A stretch of 64,000 nucleotides of DNA from a virus (IMGVR_UViG_3300030376_004823:3917-67916), one strand, 5' to 3'. Positions 4,370 to 34,500 are shown, counted from the stretch's first letter. Made by a program: numbers and translations. The notes: generated by a model from the letters alone, not told the origin.

Positions 4370-5638
4370 CTATCTAAATATCTGTACTGACCCCTGGATA
4401 GATAAGTTTCTGCCCCCGTAAGTCCTGGCCTTTATGATCCACGCATACACCCCGTCAGGGACATAGTGGCTTCCAGAACCCCCGTCCCAAGATTGCTCTG
4501 GGTCATCAGTCTGAAAGATCATGTCCCCCCATCTGTTGTATATGCTCATGCTCCACTCCCCCCAACAGCTTGGATCCGCCTGATGAGCTTTAAACCCATC
4601 GTTCAGCCCGTCATTGTTTGGGGTAAATACATTCGGGACGAACACAACCATCTCGTCGCATTCATCAAACCCTGGCTGATCGTCACACGGGAGACCTGTA
4701 TTGCAGTCCAGCCATAGCTCTTGCACTATATACTCTTGCAAGGTATCTGTAACATACTCAGTTACATACAAAGTATCGGTAAAGTAATACTCTATAACTT
4801 CTGGGGGAAGTTGCTGATATACAGTATCATACTCAGTTATATACAGCGTGTCGGTAAGGTATACGTATGTAGTGTCATAGAAATACCAGTTGATTGGTAT
4901 GGGGATGGTGTCGTTGATCACTACGGTGTCAACCTCTACAACCACAATGGTATCTGGAGGAATCTCTACATACACAGTGTCTACTATAACCTCTGGTATC
5001 GGTTCCCCACAGGGACCTACTACAACCCAGTTGTCCAAGAAGTTAGCGTCTTCATACAGCCCAACCCCTGTTGATGTTCCGTCTCCATTCGGCCCTACCT
5101 CAGCCCAGCCCCCGTCAGCAGCATACATAGTAACCCCATAGCTTATCTGCCATACCACCACTTGAACGCTCAGCCCTTGGTCAACCCAGTGTTCTATAAC
5201 TGGCTCAACCTGACAATACATACCATAAGCAAACTGACCGTTTACACAGTCGCTCTGATATTGGTTGTATATAGGGAAGACAACGGTGTCCCCAGTATAG
5301 TAAGGGGGGTCTATGGATTCATCATATAGATTGGTCCAGTTGTTGCCAGTGTCTGTGCTGGTAGCGGAATATATCCACCCTGGGTGATTAGACTCTGGAG
5401 AGAGAGAAAAACCAGACGGGAACTCCCACCCCTGGTTCATTGCATTGCAATCCCCATCTAAAGCCTGAAACCCAAACTGTATTTCAGAAATGCCGTCAGG
5501 GCCACTGGCACCCCCGCAATTCTCTGTGTTGTTGAAGGCCACTGTGACGTAACCCTGATTAAGGTCTACGTCTATTATCTCTAGGTCGCACTGCGCAGAG
5601 CACAGAAGCGGGAAGAACAAGGGGAGGAAGCGCTTCAT
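4370..5638 (-). CDS. Secreted protein with T9SS type-B (CHU_C / gliding-motility-associated) C-terminal domain and DT(V/I/L/T)-repeat stalk
   Basis: Signal peptide MKRFLPLFFPLLCSAQ. C-terminus VFVPNVFTPNNDGLND...IYNRWGDMIFQT...WDG...PDGVY...GSVQIFR is a typical type-B CTD. Confidence 0.85.
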   Translation of the reverse strand: MKRFLPLFFPLLCSAQCDLEIIDVDLNQGYVTVAFNNTENCGGASGPDGISEIQFGFQALDGDCNAMNQGWEFPSGFSLSPESNHPGWIYSATSTDTGNNWTNLYDESIDPPYYTGDTVVFPIYNQYQSDCVNGQFAYGMYCQVEPVIEHWVDQGLSVQVVVWQISYGVTMYAADGGWAEVGPNGDGTSTGVGLYEDANFLDNWVVVGPCGEPIPEVIVDTVYVEIPPDTIVVVEVDTVVINDTIPIPINWYFYDTTYVYLTDTLYITEYDTVYQQLPPEVIEYYFTDTLYVTEYVTDTLQEYIVQELWLDCNTGLPCDDQPGFDECDEMVVFVPNVFTPNNDGLNDGFKAHQADPSCWGEWSMSIYNRWGDMIFQTDDPEQSWDGGSGSHYVPDGVYAWIIKARTYGGRNLSIQGSVQIFR

Positions 5639-7616: not shown

Positions 7617-8033
7617 ATGCCTAAGTCAAGGGTTTCTAAAACCAAGATGTTCAGGGACTTCTCTAGGATGAAAGGGAAGTACTTGAACAACAACCACCTC
7701 AAAAACTTGCATTCGGCAAGAAAGAAGTTCTGTAAAGACAGTGGGGTGGGGTGGAAGCACTTGGAGTTTATGCTCTGGGCCTACGACCTAGAGTTCTTTA
7801 CTATAGACTACGCCTCAGAGGAGTACGAATACAATAGAACCAATATGGCGAACAGGATTATATACCCACTGCAGTCCGACGGGTATATATACAAGCACTT
7901 TGAGAGGCTAACCCCCTCAAAGACTTTAGAAGATCACATATTCAGAGAAGAAACCAAGTACAACTACAGGGTGCGATACGCCCTCTCTCAACGCGCTAGG
8001 CTGTTGGTGCAGCGGTTTTACCAGAGCTTGTAG
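7617..8033 (+). CDS. Winged-helix (MarR-like) putative regulator
   Basis: The only + strand gene in the left late block. Helix-helix-wing pattern ...RIIYPLQSDGYIYK...YRVRYALSQRARLLVQRFY. Confidence 0.5.
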   Translation: MPKSRVSKTKMFRDFSRMKGKYLNNNHLKNLHSARKKFCKDSGVGWKHLEFMLWAYDLEFFTIDYASEEYEYNRTNMANRIIYPLQSDGYIYKHFERLTPSKTLEDHIFREETKYNYRVRYALSQRARLLVQRFYQSL

Positions 8034-8485
8034 GTCGTGCCTGGGTACTTGGGGTCTTTATATGCCTTCAATACCCTCCCTTTGTTTTCTGTAGGGGAGT
8101 TGTAGCTTACGTGAACCCAATCGGGGTTGGAGTCGTCACCAAACTCCCAGATCAGCTGATCGAAATCCAAGCAGTCTTTGATATAGTGAAATATCTCTCC
8201 GTTGGTGACCTTACCGAATACATCGGCGTCAAGATCCAGCGCTCTCCCCTGGCAGTGCTGTGACGTGGTGCTCCCCCCTATCGCGGTGTTCAGCTTGGGG
8301 GATCTATACCCAGAAGAAATGTATATCGGGACACCGAAGTGCTCTCTAACAGGCTGAAAGATGTGCTCGGCAACCAGCTTCAGGTTGGTTATCTGCGGGT
8401 CGTCAGGCTGATTTTTTAAACCAAGTCGGCTGGCCGTTAAACTTTTGGTACACTCTTTTAGAGTCAGGTTTTCTGATAAATTCAT
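8018..8485 (-). CDS. Endolysin, peptidase M15A (Zn D-Ala-D-Ala peptidase fold)
   Basis: Motifs SGYRS..LN..IGGS.TSQHC.GRALDLD and WVHVSY. Confidence 0.9.
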   Translation of the reverse strand: MNLSENLTLKECTKSLTASRLGLKNQPDDPQITNLKLVAEHIFQPVREHFGVPIYISSGYRSPKLNTAIGGSTTSQHCQGRALDLDADVFGKVTNGEIFHYIKDCLDFDQLIWEFGDDSNPDWVHVSYNSPTENKGRVLKAYKDPKYPGTTYKLW

Positions 8486-26934: not shown

Positions 26935-26961
26935 AAGAGGGGCCCTTCGGGGCCCTTCTTT
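26935..26961. terminator. Bidirectional intrinsic terminator between the convergent blocks
   Basis: AAGAGGGGCCC-TTCG-GGGCCCTTCTT: 11-bp stem with a C(UUCG)G loop. Confidence 0.9.
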
Positions 26962-26962
26962 G

Positions 26963-27328
26963 TTAGAAGTCGCTCATAAGGGCTTCGTCAACAGCCTCTT
27001 GCACATCCTTTTTGGTGGCCTCCATAGACATCATAATGTTAGCCTGAAACCTGGTCACCTCGTCGCCGTTGTTAAACACCACGATGGTTGGGACCACTAC
27101 GATCTTATGCTTCTTCTGAAGGTCTGGATCAGTGACTATATCTACGCGAGACGTAACACAGTCGTTCAAAGACTCTATCCACTCAACGCTATTAGCGGAG
27201 TTAAAGCTGGCGTTAAACTCGACTACGCAAACGCCTTGGTTACAAACTGCTTTATCAGCAGGAGCGGCCACATAGGCAGCTCCCGACAATAGAACAAAGA
27301 ACGCAGCAAGGGCAAGAACAGTTTTCAT
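26963..27328 (-). CDS. Exported thioredoxin-fold protein lacking CxxC
   Basis: Signal peptide. VVEFNASFNSAN sits where WCxxC would be; cis-Pro motif VVPTIVVF retained. Confidence 0.7.
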   Translation of the reverse strand: MKTVLALAAFFVLLSGAAYVAAPADKAVCNQGVCVVEFNASFNSANSVEWIESLNDCVTSRVDIVTDPDLQKKHKIVVVPTIVVFNNGDEVTRFQANIMMSMEATKKDVQEAVDEALMSDF

Positions 27329-27336
27329 AATTCATA

Positions 27337-27621
27337 TCACTTCAGGTTATCTATTTTCTCTTCTATCCGTTTCATGTCTTCCTTTATCTCGGCGACATCT
27401 TCTTGGGTAGTCATAATAGTTTGACGCACGAGCTGGTCCTTCATATCAAACTCCATTCTGGTAATCTCTGGATCGGGGGGTAAGGGTAGAACCTTTGCTT
27501 CAGCTATGTCTGCCTGTAAAGCAAACCACATGGCGATAATTGATCCAAGCCCCGCTGTAGCCATCCCTATTGTCTTCAAGTCTACTGTGACTTTTGTGTC
27601 CTCCCCGATTTGATTCGCCAT
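27337..27621 (-). CDS. Single-TM protein with C-terminal coiled coil
   Basis: TM segment IGMATAGLGSIIAMWFAL; heptads QEDVAEIKEDMKRIEEKIDNLK. Confidence 0.7.
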   Translation of the reverse strand: MANQIGEDTKVTVDLKTIGMATAGLGSIIAMWFALQADIAEAKVLPLPPDPEITRMEFDMKDQLVRQTIMTTQEDVAEIKEDMKRIEEKIDNLK

Positions 27622-27622
27622 C

Positions 27623-28660
27623 TCAAAGTATTACGTAGTTTATGCCTACGGAGAAGTCGTGCCAAACCCTATCCCAATACTTGTTGTATTTACCCTCTAG
27701 GAAGACACCAAAACTCCTGCTGAAGCGTCTCCCAAAGATAAGGCCCCCAGAGTAATCAATCCATTGGTCGTCATTAACGAACCGCTGGTATGCGTATTCG
27801 CTCTGTGAGTCAAGGTGGACGGGCATTACGTTACCCCAGCTGTGCATCCAGAAGTCATCTGTGTAGTGATAGAAATCAAATCCGATAACTAAAGAATGGT
27901 TCCATTGGTCGGGTAGTTCAGACCTTTTTCTATTTACATAATCGCTCAAGACCTCAGGTATAATAACCTCCTCCCAAACCTCAGAGCTGGTTGCTACGAC
28001 ATCGCCGCTGGGAGAAAAGAACTCCCCTGTGTTTACGTTCACCTCATACCCTTCTTGGATGGCAAGGAAAGTATAGTGAAGCTGATCATTATTAAGAAGC
28101 CACTCGTTGAGCGGATCGTAGCCATAAGGCTCAGAAACCCTCTGTACGGCCCCTACATTCAATGAAAGTTTGCCCCCCAGGTTTACACGAAGTCTTTGCG
28201 ACCCCTCAAAATACCTTACATCAGCAAACCCATCTTGAAGAAACTCTACTTTGGCGATCCAGTTGTTGCTCACGTACCTCAAGAAGTAGTCTTGATCTAG
28301 GTAATTGACCCCCTGCTGGCGCCTGTAGTCGCCCTCAAACAGAAACTCGAAACCCTTTACCTTCCCTATCGTAGCGGCATCCCCATAAGACTTCTCTGTC
28401 CCGTCATAGAATACGTTGGCTCGGTTCTCGTATCCAAACCTAGCGATCTTCCTTATCCCTGCGGTGAATGAGTAGTCAAATGGAGTTTTAGTTATGTCTG
28501 TCTGCAATCCGTTATTGAGGGAGAACACTTCAGAATCTGACAATGAGTTTCCCCCGCTAAATGCAGTGTAGAATGTCGCAAACTTGAGCGCCTTCTTGAA
28601 CGTCTGACCCTGACAACCAAATGAAAGGAGGATCAGTATTAGTGCTATAATCTGTTTCAT
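27623..28660 (-). CDS. Putative outer-membrane beta-barrel protein
   Basis: Signal or lipoprotein-like leader (LLSFGC); many alternating amphipathic strands; ends DFSVGINYVIL. Confidence 0.65.
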   Translation of the reverse strand: MKQIIALILILLSFGCQGQTFKKALKFATFYTAFSGGNSLSDSEVFSLNNGLQTDITKTPFDYSFTAGIRKIARFGYENRANVFYDGTEKSYGDAATIGKVKGFEFLFEGDYRRQQGVNYLDQDYFLRYVSNNWIAKVEFLQDGFADVRYFEGSQRLRVNLGGKLSLNVGAVQRVSEPYGYDPLNEWLLNNDQLHYTFLAIQEGYEVNVNTGEFFSPSGDVVATSSEVWEEVIIPEVLSDYVNRKRSELPDQWNHSLVIGFDFYHYTDDFWMHSWGNVMPVHLDSQSEYAYQRFVNDDQWIDYSGGLIFGRRFSRSFGVFLEGKYNKYWDRVWHDFSVGINYVIL

Positions 28661-31065
28661 TGCTTCACTATTCTTTTTCTTGTAACCCTACCTCCGTGAC
28701 GAATGACAATCTGGTAGGTAGAGCTTGGAAGGTGAGTAAGGTCAATCCCGTAACTTGTGATTACCGCATCAACTCTTTGACCTGTAAGGGAGTAAACCTC
28801 CGCCTCAAACCCCTGTGGAGAGTGGACTATAACCTGTCCGCTTGTTGGGTTGGGTAAAACCCTTATTGAGTACTCGCTTTCCGATACATCGGTAACCCCC
28901 ATCTCGCAGTAAGAGTACATCTCCTGACACACCCCATCCCACTCCTGATTGCAGCAGTAGGGGTCCACGTCGATTACCCATAGATAGCAATAGTCGTTAG
29001 CCCAATAAGGGTCTCCAGGATCTCCAATGCACCCAGCGTCATACAAGCAAGACTCGTTGTCTGGTGTGTTGGCCTCTGAGTCGTAGTTGAATGCGTCTAT
29101 GTCCATGCACCCAACAACCACTGGGATGCAGCTACCGTTATCTACGTTGGCCTCCTCCTGGAAGTTAAGCGCCTCAGGATCAGTGCACCCGAACAAAGCA
29201 AGAGTAGAACAGCTTCCGTCATCATAGTCAGCCTCGTATCCCTGAGTGTAGTATTCCAAGTATCCAGCCTGAGTGCATCCTGCAGCGTAGTAACAACTCT
29301 CGTCTTCAGTGTTAGCTAACTCACTGTAGTTCTGTGCGTTAGAGTCCATACACCCATATACAAACTCTTCACAAAGGTTTCCGCAGTATGTTGTGGCTGT
29401 GTAGATATATGGGAATGGAATTACGCTCCATTGAGAAACGTCTAGAATCTCATCCCCAGACGGTCCGTCAAGCGTAAACCCGCACTGAGCTACAGTAAAT
29501 AGAGACTGCGGGGTAGAGAAAAAATAAAGCTCAACTTCTTCATTGGAAGCCAAGTAGAGGTCAAAGGATTTGCTTATCCCGTCTTCTGGACCCATCTGGT
29601 ATTGTGGCGATAGCCAGTCCCCTTGCTTCAATCCTACCCAACTACCAAACCATCCGTCACCAACTCCGTCAGTAAGGGTTAGCGTGTAAACACAAGAGTC
29701 TGGTTGCTCCTCTACGTTAGCCTCTGGGCTGTAGTTGTAGTACGCCGTGTCTATACATCCGTACACCACTGGGGTTTCGCAAAGCAAATCAACAAACACG
29801 GTGGCATCTGGGTTGTACTCCAGATAGTCTGGATCTCCGCACCCCACCAAGTCCTCTATGTTTTGACACACAGGAGCAGGGAAAGAAGCCTCTATGTTGT
29901 AGCCAAAGTTTGTGCTTTCTGTTGGTAGTGACCATATCTCTTCACCACAGGCTTCCACTATCACTGTTCCATCCTCTCCGCCCCACTGAGATCCATTCAT
30001 CCCGTCACCATACGAGTCTAAGACAAGGATTTGAATTTCACTCCCTATAGATACGCAAGTGTTTGTTACAATCGGTATCCCCATGGGGGCGCCAGATAGG
30101 TCTCCTGTGTTGACTGAGGTTATAATTCCCCCTTGAGTTAGGTCTACTAGACCCCAAGCGGTTTCTGCTGGGTAGTTGTCTGGAATTACAGTTACAGAAA
30201 CCTCCGTCTCGGTTACGCTGCAGTTAGCGGACTCCACTACGTTGCACCCTTGATTAAAGTTAGCCCAGGGATTGTAGTTCGTGGCTGTAGAGTCGGTACA
30301 CCCAACTACAGATCCACAAGGAAAACAGCTCTCCCAACAAAATGTAGGGAGCGTCATTGCCCCCTCTACATTTAAGGTTCTGTTTACGAACCCCCATTCA
30401 TCAAACAGGAAGCAAGGGGAGTTTATTACTCCTGCTGGCATTTCTTGATACGTCCAATCATCCGCAGAAAACTTCCAGAGGTGATTGCCTAGCGGCATGT
30501 CAATGGTAACCTCCCATATCTCATCCCCGTCTAAGTCTTGCATTTGATTGCATCCACCGCACCACCCGTTCCAGCTTGTGTTTACCTCTGGGGTGACGAT
30601 ATCCTCTGGGTGCGGACCATTTAAATCCAACCTAAACCTTACGCTATATAGGCAGAAGTCATCAATAATCGCTAAAGGGTCGAAGTTGCTTGCCTCTTCA
30701 TCCATGCACCCAACAACTGGAGGGGGGCAAGGGAGTAGGTTGAACGGGACTTCCATTTGAGCAGAAGCGAAGTCATACACTCCGATGTCTAACCCGCAGC
30801 TGTTAGTCAGGGTAAAGAACCCCTCCCCGTACTGGCAGCATATTCCGTCACCAAACTCGTCGTATGCTACGAATGTATACTCACCAGCAGGTAGGTTAAT
30901 CAAAACCTCTTCTGCCACCCCTGAGGCCACAACGTTAGTGTCAGACAGTATCTCCCATGAGCTTTCGTCAGCGTATTGATCGGAAACAAAGTTTACGTTC
31001 ACCCAGCTCCCCTGAGCCATCATAGAAAAAGGGAGTAGTAGAAGTAGAGTTAGGAGTCTGTTCAT
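28657..31065 (-). CDS. T9SS type-A cargo: D..GDG beta domains, CBM48/20-like module, eight GCxD..A.NY repeats, Por-secretion tail
   Basis: Signal peptide. C-terminus IRVLPNPTSG...VYSLTGQ...IDLTHLPSSTY...KRIVKQ is a typical type-A CTD. Confidence 0.88.
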   Translation of the reverse strand: MNRLLTLLLLLPFSMMAQGSWVNVNFVSDQYADESSWEILSDTNVVASGVAEEVLINLPAGEYTFVAYDEFGDGICCQYGEGFFTLTNSCGLDIGVYDFASAQMEVPFNLLPCPPPVVGCMDEEASNFDPLAIIDDFCLYSVRFRLDLNGPHPEDIVTPEVNTSWNGWCGGCNQMQDLDGDEIWEVTIDMPLGNHLWKFSADDWTYQEMPAGVINSPCFLFDEWGFVNRTLNVEGAMTLPTFCWESCFPCGSVVGCTDSTATNYNPWANFNQGCNVVESANCSVTETEVSVTVIPDNYPAETAWGLVDLTQGGIITSVNTGDLSGAPMGIPIVTNTCVSIGSEIQILVLDSYGDGMNGSQWGGEDGTVIVEACGEEIWSLPTESTNFGYNIEASFPAPVCQNIEDLVGCGDPDYLEYNPDATVFVDLLCETPVVYGCIDTAYYNYSPEANVEEQPDSCVYTLTLTDGVGDGWFGSWVGLKQGDWLSPQYQMGPEDGISKSFDLYLASNEEVELYFFSTPQSLFTVAQCGFTLDGPSGDEILDVSQWSVIPFPYIYTATTYCGNLCEEFVYGCMDSNAQNYSELANTEDESCYYAAGCTQAGYLEYYTQGYEADYDDGSCSTLALFGCTDPEALNFQEEANVDNGSCIPVVVGCMDIDAFNYDSEANTPDNESCLYDAGCIGDPGDPYWANDYCYLWVIDVDPYCCNQEWDGVCQEMYSYCEMGVTDVSESEYSIRVLPNPTSGQVIVHSPQGFEAEVYSLTGQRVDAVITSYGIDLTHLPSSTYQIVIRHGGRVTRKRIVKQ

Positions 31066-31508
31066 TTTTTGGACTTTTCTATAGTTCTTCCTGCGAAGTA
31101 TGCACCAAATGCAGTGAGCATAAGTATCTGAAGCAGATCTACATAGCTGTCCTTTACGTTGAAGGGCCAGTTGTCCATGCTGTCAGCAACCATCGTAAGC
31201 ATAAACATCACCATAAGTGAGATTAGAGTGATGGGGCGAATTAGCTTAGCGAGCTTTACGTCACTCCCCATATCCGCTTTCCATCGCTCGGTCACTTGCT
31301 TTTGGGCCTCCACTTCTTGCTGCTGCTTTAGCTTCTCAAACTCCAACTTGTCCTCCATGGATACGTCTGGCTCCTTGTCCACTAGGTTTTTTACCACCCC
31401 CAGAACTCCTTTTTCTGGAAGTAAATCCCCAACCTTCTCTGCCAGCGCGGGAACCTTAGTGCTCAACCAGGCCCCTAGCGCCGTGTCTTTAATCTTCTTT
31501 CCGCTCAT
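31062..31508 (-). CDS. Putative holin
   Basis: Two C-terminal TM helices ending FGAYFAGRTIEKSKK. Start moved to ATG 31508. Confidence 0.65.
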   Translation of the reverse strand: MSGKKIKDTALGAWLSTKVPALAEKVGDLLPEKGVLGVVKNLVDKEPDVSMEDKLEFEKLKQQQEVEAQKQVTERWKADMGSDVKLAKLIRPITLISLMVMFMLTMVADSMDNWPFNVKDSYVDLLQILMLTAFGAYFAGRTIEKSKK

Positions 31509-34500
31509 TGTCGTATATCTCTTGTAGTATGTCAAGCAAAACCTTTGTGTGGTTTCTAAACTGCCCTCTGCTTATCTCTATGGCGCTGTTGTAGTTTCCA
31601 GCTATGTCGTTGAGCGCTTCTATCTTCTCTTCATCGTCCATCTTCGCGTACTTTTCCGTGGCCATAAAAGCCTCCACTTCCTTGTACCGCTCTTTGCCCG
31701 ATGCCGCCATTAGCCTGTTCATCTGCTCTGTATTCAGATAAACTCTCTCGGCCATAAAGTCATTGTCTTTAGTCCAAGTGTAGTCCTTGTTCATTCTGGA
31801 TATCATAGCGAGATGCTTCTTCTTAATGTTCGGGACATTCATCTTTCTCTTCTCTGCATACCCAGGAGTTCCTACCACCTTGGTCAAGTCTTCGGTCTGC
31901 TCGTAAAGCCTGTATATTTCGTTGGACACTGAGTCCGCCTCACCCTGACGAGACTTAGTGATATCGAAGAGCTGATATGCAATTCCGTTGTTGCCTCTGG
32001 GGGTCTGCTTAATTGGCTCTCCCTTCCAGTTGACTCTAACTGGGACGTCACCCAAACCAAAGGTTCTGTCCTTGATGGTGTATGCCATCCTCTCAACAAG
32101 CCTTTCTCCAAGGCTCATGTCCTTTGTGATCCTTGTGTCTGGCAGATACTCTCTCGTGCCCCTGTATATCGCACTAAGCGTGTTGGGGAAGGCGGTAGCA
32201 GAAACAGCTTGGAATGTGGTTCTAAACCAGTTCTCGAAGTTCTTCTCGAAGTCAGTAGCGTCAGCAGAAGAGATAACATCTACGAGCGTGTTCATTCCTT
32301 GCATGAAGCTCTGGTCCATCATATATGCAATGGAGGAGAACGCACCCACGCCGAACGAATCTTGCAGTGCGTGGATCGGGAAGTCGAGACCGCTGTAGTC
32401 TCTCTTCTTCAGCTCCTCCTTATCTGCACCCTTTATGATTGCACCCATGATGGCCCCCATCACGCCCAGCTTTGTATACGAAATAAACCTGTCGTCGGGC
32501 TGCTTAGTAGCATCTCCTCCAGACATAAATCTTTGAAGCCCAGTTACATTGATGCTGTTCGGTGGGAACTGATCGTAAGCTAGGTTCTTTTCTTCATCCT
32601 CATCCCACTCTATAGCACCAGAGATCAACCCCTCTTTTAGGAGCATTACTGCCGTCTGAGACACCATGCTTCCAACGACCAGCTTACCGAAGTTTTGAGC
32701 AGCCTCACGAGCGTCTCCATTCTGGAGGTTCTTCATGATTCTCGGACCAGCGATGTACGGAGACACGTAGGTAAGGGTATCGATCAGAATGTTCGCAGGA
32801 GTCCTTACGTAAGGTAAGTTGGATCTAATCAAGAACTTAGCCATAGCCCTGCCGTCCGCTCCAGGAATCCAGTCAAACGCCTTGGTAAACATTCTCTCAA
32901 AGAATGAAACCGCATCCTCTGCAGCCTTAGATGCTCCAGTCTGCTCCTGATAAGTGAGCTTTCTGCCCTCTCTTGCGGCTGCTTCCTGAGCCCTCTTAGT
33001 TGGATGCTTAATAAACTGAGCAAGGGATTCTCCTTCAAGGCCCTGTGCGACACCAGCTTGATAAAGCTCAATGCCCTCAACCCCCCTCCTGAAAGGAACG
33101 TCACCCAAAGACAGGAATCGGAACATGACTTCAGCTGGAATGCCAAGAGTACCTTGAACCAATAGCTTTAGCCTTTGACTTAAAGGCGCTTTTCCATCTG
33201 GCCCCATAGGTAGGTCTCCCTTACCCATGGCTGAAGCAAGAGATCTAAAGGGGGCAAAACCCCTGTGTACTCTCCACTCTGAAACATCTTTTTCTTGACC
33301 CGTAACGATGCCGTCCAGGGCTTCAACAAAACCAGAACCGAACTTTCTTATGCCGTACATATAAGCATTAATAGAATAGTTCCTTTTCATCGGAGACTCG
33401 ATACCAAACATGTTGATCAGCCTTTCTATTGGAAGAGCTATTGCGTCTACACCAATCTTTCCGATCGCATTGATCATGTTTGCCCCTACGTTCGTAATCT
33501 GAGACATCGGAGTAAGAAGGTTGCCCTGAATAAGCATGGTTCCGATCTGGCCCCACCCCCTTTCAATAACCCCGTTTGCAAATGTGTCTAACCTGCGTTC
33601 AGCGTCCTTTACCTCTTCCGTTTTGTTTTTAAGCTCAACGTCAACGTCTTCACCAGAGATCGCCCTCCTCACGAGGTCTTCGTGTTCGGCCTGAAGTCGA
33701 AACAAGTCTCCAGACATGTCTTGTAGCCTAGCTTGTTGTTCTGAGCTTAGGCTGTTCCCCCTTCTTTCTACCTCTCTTTTTATAATAGCCTCAATTCCAG
33801 CTGGAGACGCGGACTTTAGTTCTCTAAAGTGCCTAAGAAGTCTACCAGCGGTAGTTCCGATTGCGGCAGCCTCAGCAATGATATCGGGAATAGCGTCGAG
33901 TTCCCCCCTCGCTACCGCCCTGCTTATCATTTCCGCAGAAGCCAATACACCGAGATCGTCGTTTCTTTCTTGTAGTCTTCCTAAACCATCCCCCGTCATA
34001 ATGTGGATCAACTCTGCATCAGTCATATCCTTTAGGTCCGCTTTCAGGTCTTTTAAAATCTGAGGGGAGAAGTAATTCCTTGGGTTTTCAAGTATCTGCT
34101 TTTTTACAGTGGTAAACCTTCTCGCATTACGACCAGCAGTTCTTCTCAGTTTAAGCATACCAGATGCCATTTCGTCTGCCCGAAGCATGTTCTCCGCAAC
34201 CTCGCTTTCGTTGAGAGCAACCCTGGATTCTATGGGCATGTTGTCGTAGGCCTCCTCTAGGTCACGTCTGTTTTGAAACTCGATTCCATTTCTCTTGGAG
34301 AAAGCCTCAAACCTAGAAACAGCCCTGTCGTACTTCGGGCCTCGCTTTACCCTTTTCCCTCTTTGCTCCTCAGTCTCCATTCTACCTCTATCCAAAATCG
34401 GATCGTCGAAGGCGTAGTACTCGATATCGCCCCTCAAGTAAACCACACTCCCCACTATAGTCGCTTCAGAAGCAGACTTTATTGCACGACCAGATGCGTC

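What the first reader, a model, noticed from the sequence alone, without database searches (positions are those of the whole stretch)
26963..31508. Phage-encoded T9SS surface-display / envelope cassette co-transcribed with the holin
Seen: five tightly packed late genes directly after the giant cargo gene, ending at the convergent terminator. They encode a holin-like protein; an 802-aa signal-peptide protein with three D..GDG beta modules, a CBM48/20-like module, eight GCxD..A.NY repeats, a Cys-rich DPYCC...WD..C module and a T9SS type-A CTD; a 345-aa beta-barrel-like protein; a single-TM coiled coil; and an exported thioredoxin fold. Known: type-A CTDs route cargo through the Bacteroidota T9SS to the cell surface. 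Inference: a lytic phage uses host Sec and T9SS to build an envelope-spanning complex late in infection. It could drive adhesion of infected cells to particles or neighbours, block superinfection, or disrupt the outer membrane in place of spanins (none recognised here).
Basis: partly seen in the sequence, partly recalled or inferred. Interest (0 to 1): 0.88.

Follow-up and report, generated by a model that had tools for sequence, protein, structure and literature searches.

The report
Phage envelope trio with T9SS cargo
An uncultured marine phage of Bacteroidota carries, next to its holin, a protein tagged for the host's type IX secretion system plus a phage-only trio (outer-membrane barrel, inner-membrane helix protein, inactive periplasmic thioredoxin); the set is in every related phage genome examined, and in a second phage group the trio lies inside the lysis genes, yet I found no description of the trio in the papers searched.

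Summary
On the minus strand, 26963-31508 encodes five tightly packed genes. They are a holin (phrog_3427, 1.7e-23) and an 802-aa signal-peptide protein with a T9SS type-A CTD (TIGR04183, 31.9 bits against a cut-off of 23). Then come a 345-aa outer-membrane beta-barrel (AF2 pLDDT 80), a 94-aa one-TM helical protein and a thioredoxin-like protein lacking CxxC.

Cargo, barrel, TM protein and Trx form a phage-only module. Each of 22 related genomes has one barrel, one holin and one type-A cargo. In 52 of 52 loci with adequate flanks the cargo lies beside the trio, through three gene orders. Among 185,579 species genomes only five MAG contigs of implausible taxa match the barrel.

The holin link is not conserved in this family (11 of 52). 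The trio also occurs in a second phage group without a type-A cargo. There it lies directly beside an M15 endolysin and the holin (17 of 17 in one subgroup).

I read the trio as an envelope arm of lysis, a spanin analogue without a lipoprotein, and the cargo as its lineage-specific surface partner (confidence 0.4). Surface display or exclusion is the main rival.

Phage T9SS cargo is published (Bellas 2020). I found no description of the trio. This scan noted the same module before on other DNA.

The parts
31062..31508 (-). Holin-like protein (P0001). The ORF opens at a TTG at 31535; the likely ATG start is at 31508.
   Evidence: phrog_3427 holin 1.7e-23. Pfam GTA_holin_3TM 3e-4, below cut-off. 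Hydrophobic segment at about residues 93-120. One homologue in each of 22 related genomes.
28657..31065 (-). 802-aa Sec/T9SS cargo (P0002). It has a signal peptide, three GDG beta-sandwich modules, a CBM48-like module, eight short Cys repeats, a Cys-rich stalk and a type-A CTD.
   Evidence: No enzyme domain was found.
30310..30651 (-). CBM48/20-like module of the cargo (residues 139-252).
   Evidence: The top PDB hits of the module profile are CBM48 domains: SEX4/DSP4 0.023, pullulanase 0.065, GlgB 0.64. AMPK1_CBM, CBM_48 or X25 appear in 1-2 of 25 relatives. Nearest ESM Atlas clusters carry CBM48/CBM20. The support is moderate.
29371..30228 (-). GDG beta-sandwich modules 2 and 3 of the cargo (about residues 280-400 and 460-565), with repeats R3 and R4 between them.
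   Evidence: AF2 pLDDT 88. Best fold matches are only generic: PLAT/C2 Z 6.6 and the Ca-dependent CBM 2xhh Z 6.2. The D-x-x-GDG residues are invariant in 25 relatives.
28900..29355 (-). Repeats R5-R8 plus the invariant Cys-rich stalk (residues 571-722).
   Evidence: Repeat positions. Invariant columns in 25 relatives are densest between residues 626 and 720.
28660..28857 (-). T9SS type-A C-terminal sorting domain (residues 737-802).
   Evidence: TIGR04183 31.9 bits against 23. 25 of 25 relatives match. The family profile hits solved CTDs: 7pzj 4.6e-9, NucA CTD 8glk_D 1.3e-7, 8glj_D 2.8e-5, RgpB CTD 0.011.
27623..28660 (-). 345-aa outer-membrane beta-barrel (P0003) with a signal peptide, a conserved low-confidence loop at residues 74-101 and a helical insert at 183-248.
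   Evidence: AF2 pLDDT 80, pTM 0.72. Generic barrel matches: OmpG Z 10.3, TamA 10.1, PorV 7.9. No Pfam family in 40 members. 3026 homologues, none with a Pfam domain among the 120 listed. BFVD viral homologue A0A516LKJ4, TM 0.70.
27337..27621 (-). 94-aa bitopic membrane protein (P0004): one TM segment, a Pro-rich linker and a very conserved C-terminal helical region of about 42 aa.
   Evidence: Hydropathy. 61-sequence alignment. Always found with the barrel and Trx.
26963..27328 (-). 121-aa exported thioredoxin-fold protein lacking CxxC (P0005).
   Evidence: Trx hits 2.8e-4, below cut-off, and PDB thioredoxins at 0.004. Homologue L124:9040-9429 passes Pfam Thioredoxin at 37.4 bits. SFNSxN replaces the active site in the window's family.
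26939..26958 (.). GC-rich hairpin between the converging operons (probable terminator).
   Evidence: Read directly: GGGGCCC-TTCG-GGGCCC followed by a T-rich run. The consensus scan did not call it.
4370..5638 (-). Second T9SS cargo elsewhere in the genome (P0126): signal peptide, DT-repeat stalk and a type-B CHU_C CTD.
   Evidence: PF13585 6.5e-18. Present in only 4 of 21 related genomes. Its stalk resembles the protein that follows the barrel in the second phage group.
8018..8485 (-). Candidate endolysin (Peptidase_M15_3), 23 kb from the holin.
   Evidence: PF08291 2.4e-18. Homologues in 6 of the 21 other related genomes.

Best explanation
The block is a late, translationally coupled operon. 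Four of its five products leave the cytoplasm.

Shown:
- The cargo has a Sec signal peptide and a genuine T9SS type-A CTD.
- The 345-aa protein is an outer-membrane beta-barrel.
- The 94-aa protein has a single hydrophobic segment.
- The 121-aa protein is a thioredoxin fold without its catalytic cysteines.
- These four genes are a phage-only module. Each of 22 related genomes has one barrel and one type-A cargo, and the cargo lies beside the trio in 52 of 52 loci.
- The barrel/TM/Trx trio is the older core. It recurs in a second phage group beside an M15 endolysin and the holin.

Inferred:
- The trio is the periplasm and outer-membrane arm of the lysis programme. The TM protein sits in the inner membrane with its helix in the periplasm. 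The barrel is inserted in the outer membrane by the host BAM machinery. The inactive Trx acts as a periplasmic adaptor or chaperone.
- Once holin and endolysin have removed the cell wall, this inner-membrane-to-outer-membrane set breaks or permeabilises the outer membrane. It would do the job of spanins without an outer-membrane lipoprotein.
- The cargo is exported earlier, by Sec and then by the host T9SS while the proton-motive force lasts. It is the lineage-specific surface partner. Its invariant Cys-rich C-terminal stalk would contact the conserved parts. Its swappable N-terminal glycan-binding modules face outwards, perhaps masking receptors or holding debris at release.
For: - Export signals. 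A small residue followed by Gln near the predicted cleavage site, as in the Bacteroidetes Q-rule, occurs in 45 of 46 cargo and 42 of 42 barrel homologues with a signal-peptide-like N-terminus.
- CTD.
- Barrel.
- Module conservation: one barrel, one holin and one type-A cargo per genome in 22 of 22. The cargo lies within 3.5 kb of the trio in 52 of 52 loci, through three gene orders.
- Phage-only.
- Lysis link: the holin overlaps the cargo start in the window. The holin is adjacent in 11 of 22 genomes. In G009 a 2-TM protein lies between the TM and Trx genes, and an M15 endolysin lies just downstream of the cargo.
- Second phage group (barrel about 32% identical): the order is barrel, secreted stalk protein, 2-TM protein, TM-helix protein, Trx, Peptidase_M15_3 (2.5e-17), holin. 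The holin is within 3.5 kb in 17 of 17 loci and the endolysin in 16 of 17.
- No lipobox ORF on a coding strand of the window.
- The most conserved stretch of the barrel is the loop modelled with low confidence (residues 74-101). This is what a partner-binding surface would look like.
Against: - In about four fifths of the window's own family, and in most of subgroup 2a, the module is not near the holin or an M15 endolysin.
- Lysis-gene adjacency is clustered by lineage, so the number of independent events is small.
- No beta-barrel is known to act as a membrane-fusing or disrupting spanin partner.
- The 94-aa protein has only about 55 periplasmic residues, short for spanning the periplasm on its own.
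- The trio is far more conserved than spanins usually are.
- The reading gives the cargo no necessary role in lysis.
- The topology of P0004 and any contact among the four proteins are untested.
Confidence: 0.4

Rival explanations
1. Surface display, superinfection exclusion or protection against re-adsorption, independent of lysis. The cargo is put on the infected cell's surface by the host T9SS. The phage barrel holds or handles it, as PorV or PorP/SprF barrels do for host cargo. The outward glycan-binding modules mask the phage receptor, so that later phages, or the progeny themselves, do not adsorb to infected cells and debris.
For: - Cargo and barrel are paired in 52 of 52 loci, with overlapping stop and start.
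- In the second group the barrel is followed at once by another secreted Cys-rich stalk protein.
- The cargo's N-terminal modules are variable and shuffled, while its stalk and CTD are invariant.
- The window's cargo, holin and type-B cargo are closest to G019/G020, as are parts of the tail-fibre-like genes. The core genes are closest to G001. That fits host-linked exchange.
- Phage-encoded outer-membrane proteins used for exclusion are a known kind (lambda Lom, T5 Llp; from my own knowledge). Pfam Phage_OMP appears among the nearest Atlas clusters.
Against: - It does not explain the inner-membrane helix protein or the inactive Trx.
- Type-A cargo is not known to need a private barrel.
- The barrel has no PorP_SprF HMM match in 40 family members, and its likeness to PorV is only generic (Z 7.9).
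- The trio exists without a type-A cargo and inside a holin-endolysin cassette in the second group.
- No PADLOC match.
Confidence: 0.33
2. Auxiliary nutrient-capture or adhesion factor. The CBM48-like and other beta-sandwich modules let the infected cell bind alpha-glucans or particles, to fuel or position phage production.
For: CBM48-type leads. No catalytic domain, only binding-type folds. Bellas et al. 2020 proposed added enzymatic or competitive capability for the T9SS cargo of 'Cryophage' (PMC7468147).
Against: - The module behaves as a core gene set (22 of 22 genomes), not an optional island.
- The CBM48-like module is missing or replaced in many relatives, while the stalk, CTD and trio stay.
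- It does not explain the trio or the lysis context.
Confidence: 0.1
3. Unrelated genes that merely lie together, or a recent capture of a host operon.
For: The end of a late operon is a common place for added genes. The genomes are mosaic.
Against: - The four genes stay together through three rearrangements in more than 80 contigs.
- The barrel family is absent from 185,579 species genomes except five MAG contigs assigned to Parvibaculum, Nitrosopelagicus, Rickettsiales and Maricaulis. I take these to be mis-binned phage DNA.
- No match in cultured phages.
Confidence: 0.03

Closest known systems
Phage-encoded T9SS type-A cargo of 'Cryophage' (Bellas et al. 2020, Nat Commun, PMC7468147)
   Same: A phage gene with a T9SS type-A sorting domain, presumed to use the host's secretion system. 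The cargo varies between phage variants.
   Different: The Cryophage cargoes are enzymes or a PA14 protein lying in variable islands. Here the cargo has no enzyme domain and is present once in every related genome examined. It is always paired with a phage-only barrel/TM/Trx trio, which that paper does not describe.
Two-component spanins (lambda Rz/Rz1 type)
   Same: An inner-membrane protein with one N-terminal TM segment and a helical periplasmic part, plus an outer-membrane partner. The genes lie beside the holin, and in the second phage group beside the endolysin too. The window has no canonical spanin.
   Different: The outer-membrane partner is a 345-aa beta-barrel, not a small lipoprotein, and its Cys16 is not conserved. 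A third, Trx-fold periplasmic protein is present. Sequence conservation is far higher than is usual for spanins. Fusion or disruption activity is untested.
T9SS cargo-handling barrels PorV and PorP/SprF of Bacteroidota
   Same: An outer-membrane barrel of about 340 aa encoded next to a T9SS cargo gene. PorV appears among the fold matches (8gl6_F E 6e-4; 6h3i_F Z 7.9).
   Different: No PF11751 match in 40 family members. The likeness to PorV is no better than to OmpG, TamA or autotransporter barrels. PorP/SprF partners go with type-B cargo, whereas the adjacent cargo here is type A. Type-B cargo occurs in only 4 of 21 related genomes.
Phage-encoded outer-membrane proteins (lambda Lom, T5 Llp, cyanophage Phage_OMP PF24653)
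   Same: A phage makes a protein that is inserted into the host's outer membrane during infection.
   Different: No sequence relation was found (PF24653 is only an Atlas neighbour). Those proteins are stand-alone. This barrel always comes with an inner-membrane and a periplasmic partner.
CxxC-less thioredoxin-fold periplasmic proteins of envelope machines (F-plasmid TraF; recalled from my own knowledge, plus a weak TrbC_Ftype hit)
   Same: An exported Trx fold without catalytic cysteines, serving as a structural part of an envelope-spanning apparatus.
   Different: Only a weak similarity, below cut-off (PF09673, 0.0045). The context is phage lysis, not conjugation.

Membership tests
T9SS type-A CTD cargo (TIGR04183 / PF18962) | C-terminal domain of about 70 aa matching the family HMM above its curated cut-off | tested here: met
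   TIGR04183 31.9 bits against a cut-off of 23. PF18962 23.9 against 27, just below. 25 of 25 relatives hit TIGR04183 and 24 of 25 hit PF18962.
T9SS type-A CTD cargo (TIGR04183 / PF18962) | Homology to CTDs whose secretion was shown experimentally | tested here: met
   The family profile hits the NucA CTD caught in the translocon (8glk_D, 1.3e-7), 8glj_D, 7pzj and the RgpB CTD.
T9SS type-A CTD cargo (TIGR04183 / PF18962) | N-terminal Sec signal peptide | tested here: met
   Read from the sequence: charged n-region, Leu-rich core, then Ala followed by Gln. A small residue followed by Gln occurs in 45 of 46 homologues with a signal-peptide-like N-terminus. This is a heuristic; no SignalP was available.
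T9SS type-A CTD cargo (TIGR04183 / PF18962) | T9SS-dependent export and CTD removal in a host that has a T9SS | not testable with these tools
   The host is unknown. Bacteroidota is inferred from the CTDs, the Gln pattern, and capsid similarity to Flavobacterium and Cellulophaga phages.
Two-component spanin (Rz/Rz1) | i-spanin: N-terminal TM segment with a periplasmic coiled coil | tested here: inconclusive
   P0004 has one hydrophobic segment starting at about residue 17 and a conserved C-terminal region. Its topology and the coiled coil were not modelled. The periplasmic part is only about 55 aa.
Two-component spanin (Rz/Rz1) | o-spanin: small outer-membrane lipoprotein with a lipobox Cys | tested here: not met
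   The outer-membrane partner is a 345-aa barrel, and its Cys16 is not conserved. No lipobox ORF lies on a coding strand of the window.
Two-component spanin (Rz/Rz1) | Position in the lysis cassette beside holin and endolysin | tested here: inconclusive
   The holin is adjacent in the window. In the window's family it is adjacent in 11 of 52 loci. In subgroup 2b the holin is adjacent in 17 of 17 loci and the endolysin in 16 of 17.
PorP/SprF (PF11751) or PorV cargo-partner barrels | Match to the family HMM | tested here: not met
   No PF11751 hit for P0003, for 40 family members at E 0.05 or below, or in the genome in six frames (that search's control genomes also gave no hit).
PorP/SprF (PF11751) or PorV cargo-partner barrels | Fold specifically like PorV (14-strand FadL-type barrel) | tested here: inconclusive
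   8gl6_F E 6.2e-4 with TM 0.29. 6h3i_F Z 7.9 at rank 27, below OmpG, TamA and autotransporter barrels.
PorP/SprF (PF11751) or PorV cargo-partner barrels | Encoded beside a type-B (CHU_C) cargo | tested here: not met
   The type-B cargo of the window lies 23 kb away. Only 4 of 21 related genomes have one, while all have the barrel.
Thioredoxin (PF00085) | Trx-fold HMM match | tested here: inconclusive
   The window protein scores 21.3 bits against a cut-off of 23.5. The group-2 homologue L124:9040-9429 scores 37.4 bits, 2.7e-9. The fold is thus supported for the family, but the window protein itself stays below the cut-off.
Thioredoxin (PF00085) | CxxC active site | tested here: not met
   SFNSxN stands in its place in the window's family, and WAEWNKAN in the group-2 homologue L124.
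Holin (phrog_3427 / GTA_holin_3TM) | Family HMM match and membrane segments | tested here: met
   phrog_3427 1.7e-23. PF11351 scores 21.7 against 24.8, below cut-off. One strong hydrophobic segment was scored. A second, weaker segment at about residues 131-150 was read by eye and not scored. Hole formation is untested.
CBM48 / CBM20 starch-binding modules | Family HMM match of residues 139-252 | tested here: inconclusive
   No Pfam hit for P0002 itself. 1-2 of 25 relatives hit AMPK1_CBM, CBM_48 or X25. The module profile's top PDB hits are CBM48 domains at E 0.023-0.64.

The most novel reading that the evidence does not exclude
The barrel / TM-helix / inactive-Trx trio is a previously unrecognised, widespread device of Bacteroidota phages for breaching the outer membrane. 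It would be a third solution beside spanins and disruptins. In this family it is coupled to a T9SS-delivered surface partner, so that a phage lysis step depends on a host secretion system.
Probability: 0.3. Interest if true: 0.88.

Novelty: new variant of a known kind. Interest (0 to 1): 0.72.

Why it matters
How phages of Bacteroidota get through the outer membrane is poorly understood, and canonical spanins are seldom annotated in them. This module is abundant. The barrel family has 3026 proteins in public metagenomes, and the two viral scans confirmed 171 and 96 matching stretches in viral contigs. Every related genome examined carries it. No Pfam, PHROG or NCBIfam family matches the barrel, and the TM protein has only insignificant hits. 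If the trio is a lysis device, it defines a new route for the last step of phage release in a major group of marine bacteria. If it is a display system, it shows that phages routinely use the host T9SS to repaint the infected cell. Either way it gives a concrete four-gene target for experiments in Flavobacterium johnsoniae, a model in which T9SS mutants exist.

Tried and rejected
- **Cultured phages.** blastn and tblastn of the block, the cargo and the barrel against 50,697 phage records gave no match. The cultured relatives (Flavobacterium 'elemo' and Cellulophaga phages, 31% capsid identity) therefore lack the module at this sensitivity.
- **PorP/SprF idea for the barrel.** It was prompted by the type-B cargo in the same genome. 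I rejected membership: no HMM match, and type-B cargo occurs in only 4 of 21 genomes. I could not run a profile-profile comparison, because no Bacteroidota genome handle was available.
- **Lipoprotein reading of the barrel's LSFGC.** Rejected, because the Cys is not conserved.
- **Canonical o-spanin.** The lipobox scan found hits only on antisense strands.
- **Fold search of the GDG modules.** Only generic beta-sandwich matches, all with Z below 8.
- **PADLOC.** Nothing.
- **Contexts of two distant barrel homologues.** Both lie on contigs under 1.5 kb.
- **P0131 relatives in viral contigs.** None found.
- **Group-2 protein after the barrel as a type-B cargo.** No CHU_C or Por_Secre_tail hit. 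Only its DT-repeat stalk resembles P0126. Its last 30 or so residues look like the final two CTD motifs, but that is unproven.
- **An enzymatic barrel (OMPLA, LpxR or PagP type).** Suggested by those entries. The conserved Ser256 and His273 do not sit as a dyad in the strand register I could infer, and I had no model coordinates, so I left it as speculation.

Full report
**What is there**

The window is 64 kb of a 67,916-bp IMG/VR viral contig rated 100% complete by CheckV. Its late genes hit virion-protein PHROGs. Its capsid-region protein is about 31% identical to proteins of Flavobacterium 'elemo' phages and Cellulophaga podophages.

On the minus strand, directly after a 3163-aa gene, lie five packed ORFs:

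| Protein | Coordinates | Size | Reading |
|---|---|---|---|
| P0001 | 31062-31508 | about 148 aa from the ATG | holin |
| P0002 | 28657-31065 | 802 aa | T9SS cargo |
| P0003 | 27623-28660 | 345 aa | outer-membrane barrel |
| P0004 | 27337-27621 | 94 aa | TM helix protein |
| P0005 | 26963-27328 | 121 aa | inactive thioredoxin fold |

Stop and start overlap by 4 nt at holin/cargo and at cargo/barrel. The block ends at a GC hairpin (26939-26958), which faces a convergent ribonucleotide reductase gene.

**The parts**

*Holin.* P0001 matches the holin family phrog_3427 at 1.7e-23.

*Cargo.* P0002 has a typical signal peptide.
- Its last 66 residues match TIGR04183 above the curated cut-off: 31.9 bits against 23.
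- A profile of 25 homologues hits solved T9SS CTDs. One is the NucA CTD captured in the F. johnsoniae translocon, at 1.3e-7.
- The eight GCxD..A.NY repeats, three GDG sites and 39 cysteines are all present.
- GDG modules 2 and 3 fold as beta-sandwiches (pLDDT 88). Their fold matches are only generic, to PLAT, C2 and Ca-dependent CBM domains, with Z at most 6.6.
- Residues 139-252 look like a CBM48. A profile of this module ranks the CBM48 domains of SEX4, a pullulanase and GlgB first, but weakly. A few relatives hit AMPK1_CBM or CBM_48.
- No enzyme domain was found.

*Barrel.* P0003 models as a barrel of about 14 strands (pLDDT 80).
- It resembles OmpG, TamA, autotransporter barrels and, less well, PorV.
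- No Pfam family matches any of 40 diverse members.

*TM protein.* P0004 has one TM segment and a very conserved C-terminal region.

*Thioredoxin fold.* P0005 is a Trx fold with SFNSxN in place of CxxC. A homologue from another phage group passes Pfam Thioredoxin at 37.4 bits.

*Signal peptides.* Cargo and barrel homologues almost always have a small residue followed by Gln near the predicted cleavage site (45 of 46 and 42 of 42). This is the 'Bacteroidetes Q-rule', which I met through PMC10367356.

**Is it a unit?**

The barrel family is large: 3026 proteins, none with a Pfam domain among the 120 listed, and 310 clusters at 50% identity. The viral-contig scan confirmed 171 matching stretches.

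In the 80 loci fetched, cargo, barrel, TM protein and Trx stay together. They do so through three gene orders: 2-3-4-5, 3-4-5-2 and 4-5-x-2-3. Among 52 loci with adequate flanks, a P0002-like cargo lies within 3.5 kb of the trio in all 52.

In 22 related genomes there is one type-A CTD gene, one barrel and one holin each. The one genome with two copies of cargo and barrel has them at both contig ends, which I read as a terminal redundancy.

The barrel is absent from cultured phages. Among 185,579 species genomes it matches only five MAG contigs, assigned to Parvibaculum, Nitrosopelagicus, Rickettsiales and Maricaulis. I take these to be mis-binned phage DNA. So the block is not a recent host insertion.

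**What is and is not conserved**

The holin is next to the module in only 11 of the 22 genomes. In ten of the others it is 25-35 kb from the barrel, and in one (G009) about 7 kb. 'Co-transcribed with the holin' therefore describes this genome, not the family.

The cargo is the variable member. Its N-terminal modules are swapped or missing in relatives, while the repeats, the Cys-rich stalk and the CTD are invariant.

The window is a mosaic. Its core genes are closest to G001 (75-79%). Its cargo (78%), holin (87%) and second T9SS cargo (65%) are closest to G020/G019, as are parts of the tail-fibre-like genes.

That second cargo lies at 4370-5638 and has a type-B CHU_C CTD at 6.5e-18. Only 4 of 21 relatives have one. 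The barrel is therefore not a PorP/SprF-style partner for type-B cargo.

**A second phage group**

A barrel about 32% identical to P0003 (P0143) marks at least 96 further viral contigs. The trio is again conserved there, but no P0002-like cargo lies within 3.5 kb.

In subgroup 2b the gene order is:
1. barrel
2. a 166-256-aa secreted Cys-rich protein with an LDLa-like motif and a DT-repeat stalk like that of P0126 (no Pfam CTD)
3. a 2-TM protein of 60-78 aa
4. the TM-helix protein
5. the Trx
6. a Peptidase_M15_3 endolysin (2.5e-17)
7. the holin

. The holin is within 3.5 kb in 17 of 17 loci and the endolysin in 16 of 17. In subgroup 2a the holin is close in only 2 of 16.

In the window's own family, G009 also has a 2-TM protein between the TM and Trx genes, and an M15 endolysin just beyond the cargo. 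The window has no lipobox ORF on a coding strand.

**Reading**

Shown:
- Four exported proteins form a phage-only module found in every related genome examined.
- Its core is the trio.
- In this family the secreted partner is a real T9SS type-A cargo.

Inferred:
- The trio links the inner and outer membrane and belongs to the lysis programme, as a functional analogue of spanins without a lipoprotein.
- The cargo is exported earlier through Sec and the host T9SS, and acts as a lineage-specific surface partner.

I give this 0.4.

The main rival, at 0.33, is surface display for exclusion or for protection against re-adsorption, with the barrel as cargo handler. It explains the strict cargo-barrel pairing and the host-linked variability. 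It does not explain the inner-membrane and Trx parts, or the lysis context. The two readings are not mutually exclusive.

A nutrient-capture role (0.1) fits the CBM but not the module's presence in every related genome. Chance co-location is contradicted.

**Known or new**

Phage-encoded T9SS cargo was reported once, for 'Cryophage', where it was called a unique occurrence (Bellas et al. 2020, PMC7468147). Four full-text searches found no description of the trio or of its pairing with a cargo.

Earlier notes of this scan describe the same trio plus cargo on other DNA. I used them as a lead to look at distant relatives, and checked the lysis context myself.

**Limits**

No SignalP, multimer modelling or model coordinates were available. 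The topology of P0004, the strand count of the barrel and every protein contact are unverified. Lysis-gene adjacency is clustered by lineage, so the counts overstate the number of independent events.

Noticed in passing
window 4370-5638 (-): A second T9SS cargo (P0126, 422 aa) with a signal peptide, a stalk of DT[VIL] repeats and a type-B CHU_C CTD (6.5e-18). It occurs in only 4 of 21 related genomes. Its stalk is similar (blastp about 1e-15, composition correction off) to the small secreted protein encoded right after the barrel in the second phage group.
   Followed up: partly
L169:7554-8234, L199:8011-8781, L124:8017-8706 (+): The secreted proteins after the barrel in the second group carry an LDL-receptor class-A-like motif (weak Pfam hit, 7e-4) and a DT-repeat stalk. 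Their tail of about 30 aa resembles the last two motifs of a type-A CTD, although no CTD HMM hits. This might be a minimal sorting signal.
   Followed up: partly
L199:8784-9020, L169:8237-8419, L021:2278-2496 (+): A conserved 2-TM protein of 60-78 aa is inserted between the barrel or stalk gene and the TM-helix gene. It appears in subgroup 2b and in one genome of the window's family. It may be a second holin or an antiholin.
   Followed up: no
window 26963-31535 compared with G001, G019 and G020: There is mosaicism inside the block. Barrel and TM protein are closest to G001/G003 (75% and 81-86%). Holin, cargo and, less clearly, Trx are closest to G020 (87%, 78%, 75%). This suggests that barrel and TM protein are inherited as a pair while the cargo is exchanged.
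   Followed up: partly
L014:7805-7990, L017:7750-7935, L079:3683-3865, L163:9572-9757 (+): A conserved 60-62-aa ORF with a CPC...C motif (zinc-ribbon-like, no signal peptide) recurs between the cargo and the barrel, or near the holin, in many relatives of both phage groups. The window lacks it at this position.
   Followed up: no
L081:465-656 (+): One distant relative has a 63-aa ORF with a clear lipobox (IVGC) that overlaps the barrel start. It is the only o-spanin-like lipoprotein seen next to the module.
   Followed up: no
window 8018-8485 (-): The Peptidase_M15_3 endolysin candidate lies 23 kb from the holin. Only 6 of the 21 other related genomes have a homologue, so endolysins are exchanged within the family.
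   Followed up: partly
L008 and L009 (contig IMGVR_UViG_3300030330_003594, 59,691 bp): The module appears at both ends of one contig. I read this as a terminal redundancy or a circular permutation of the assembly.
   Followed up: no
P0003 model against BFVD: The UniProt viral protein A0A516LKJ4 (342 aa, 23% identity) has the same fold (TM 0.70, E 7e-27). The barrel family is therefore already in UniProt, with no name in the tables at hand.
   Followed up: no
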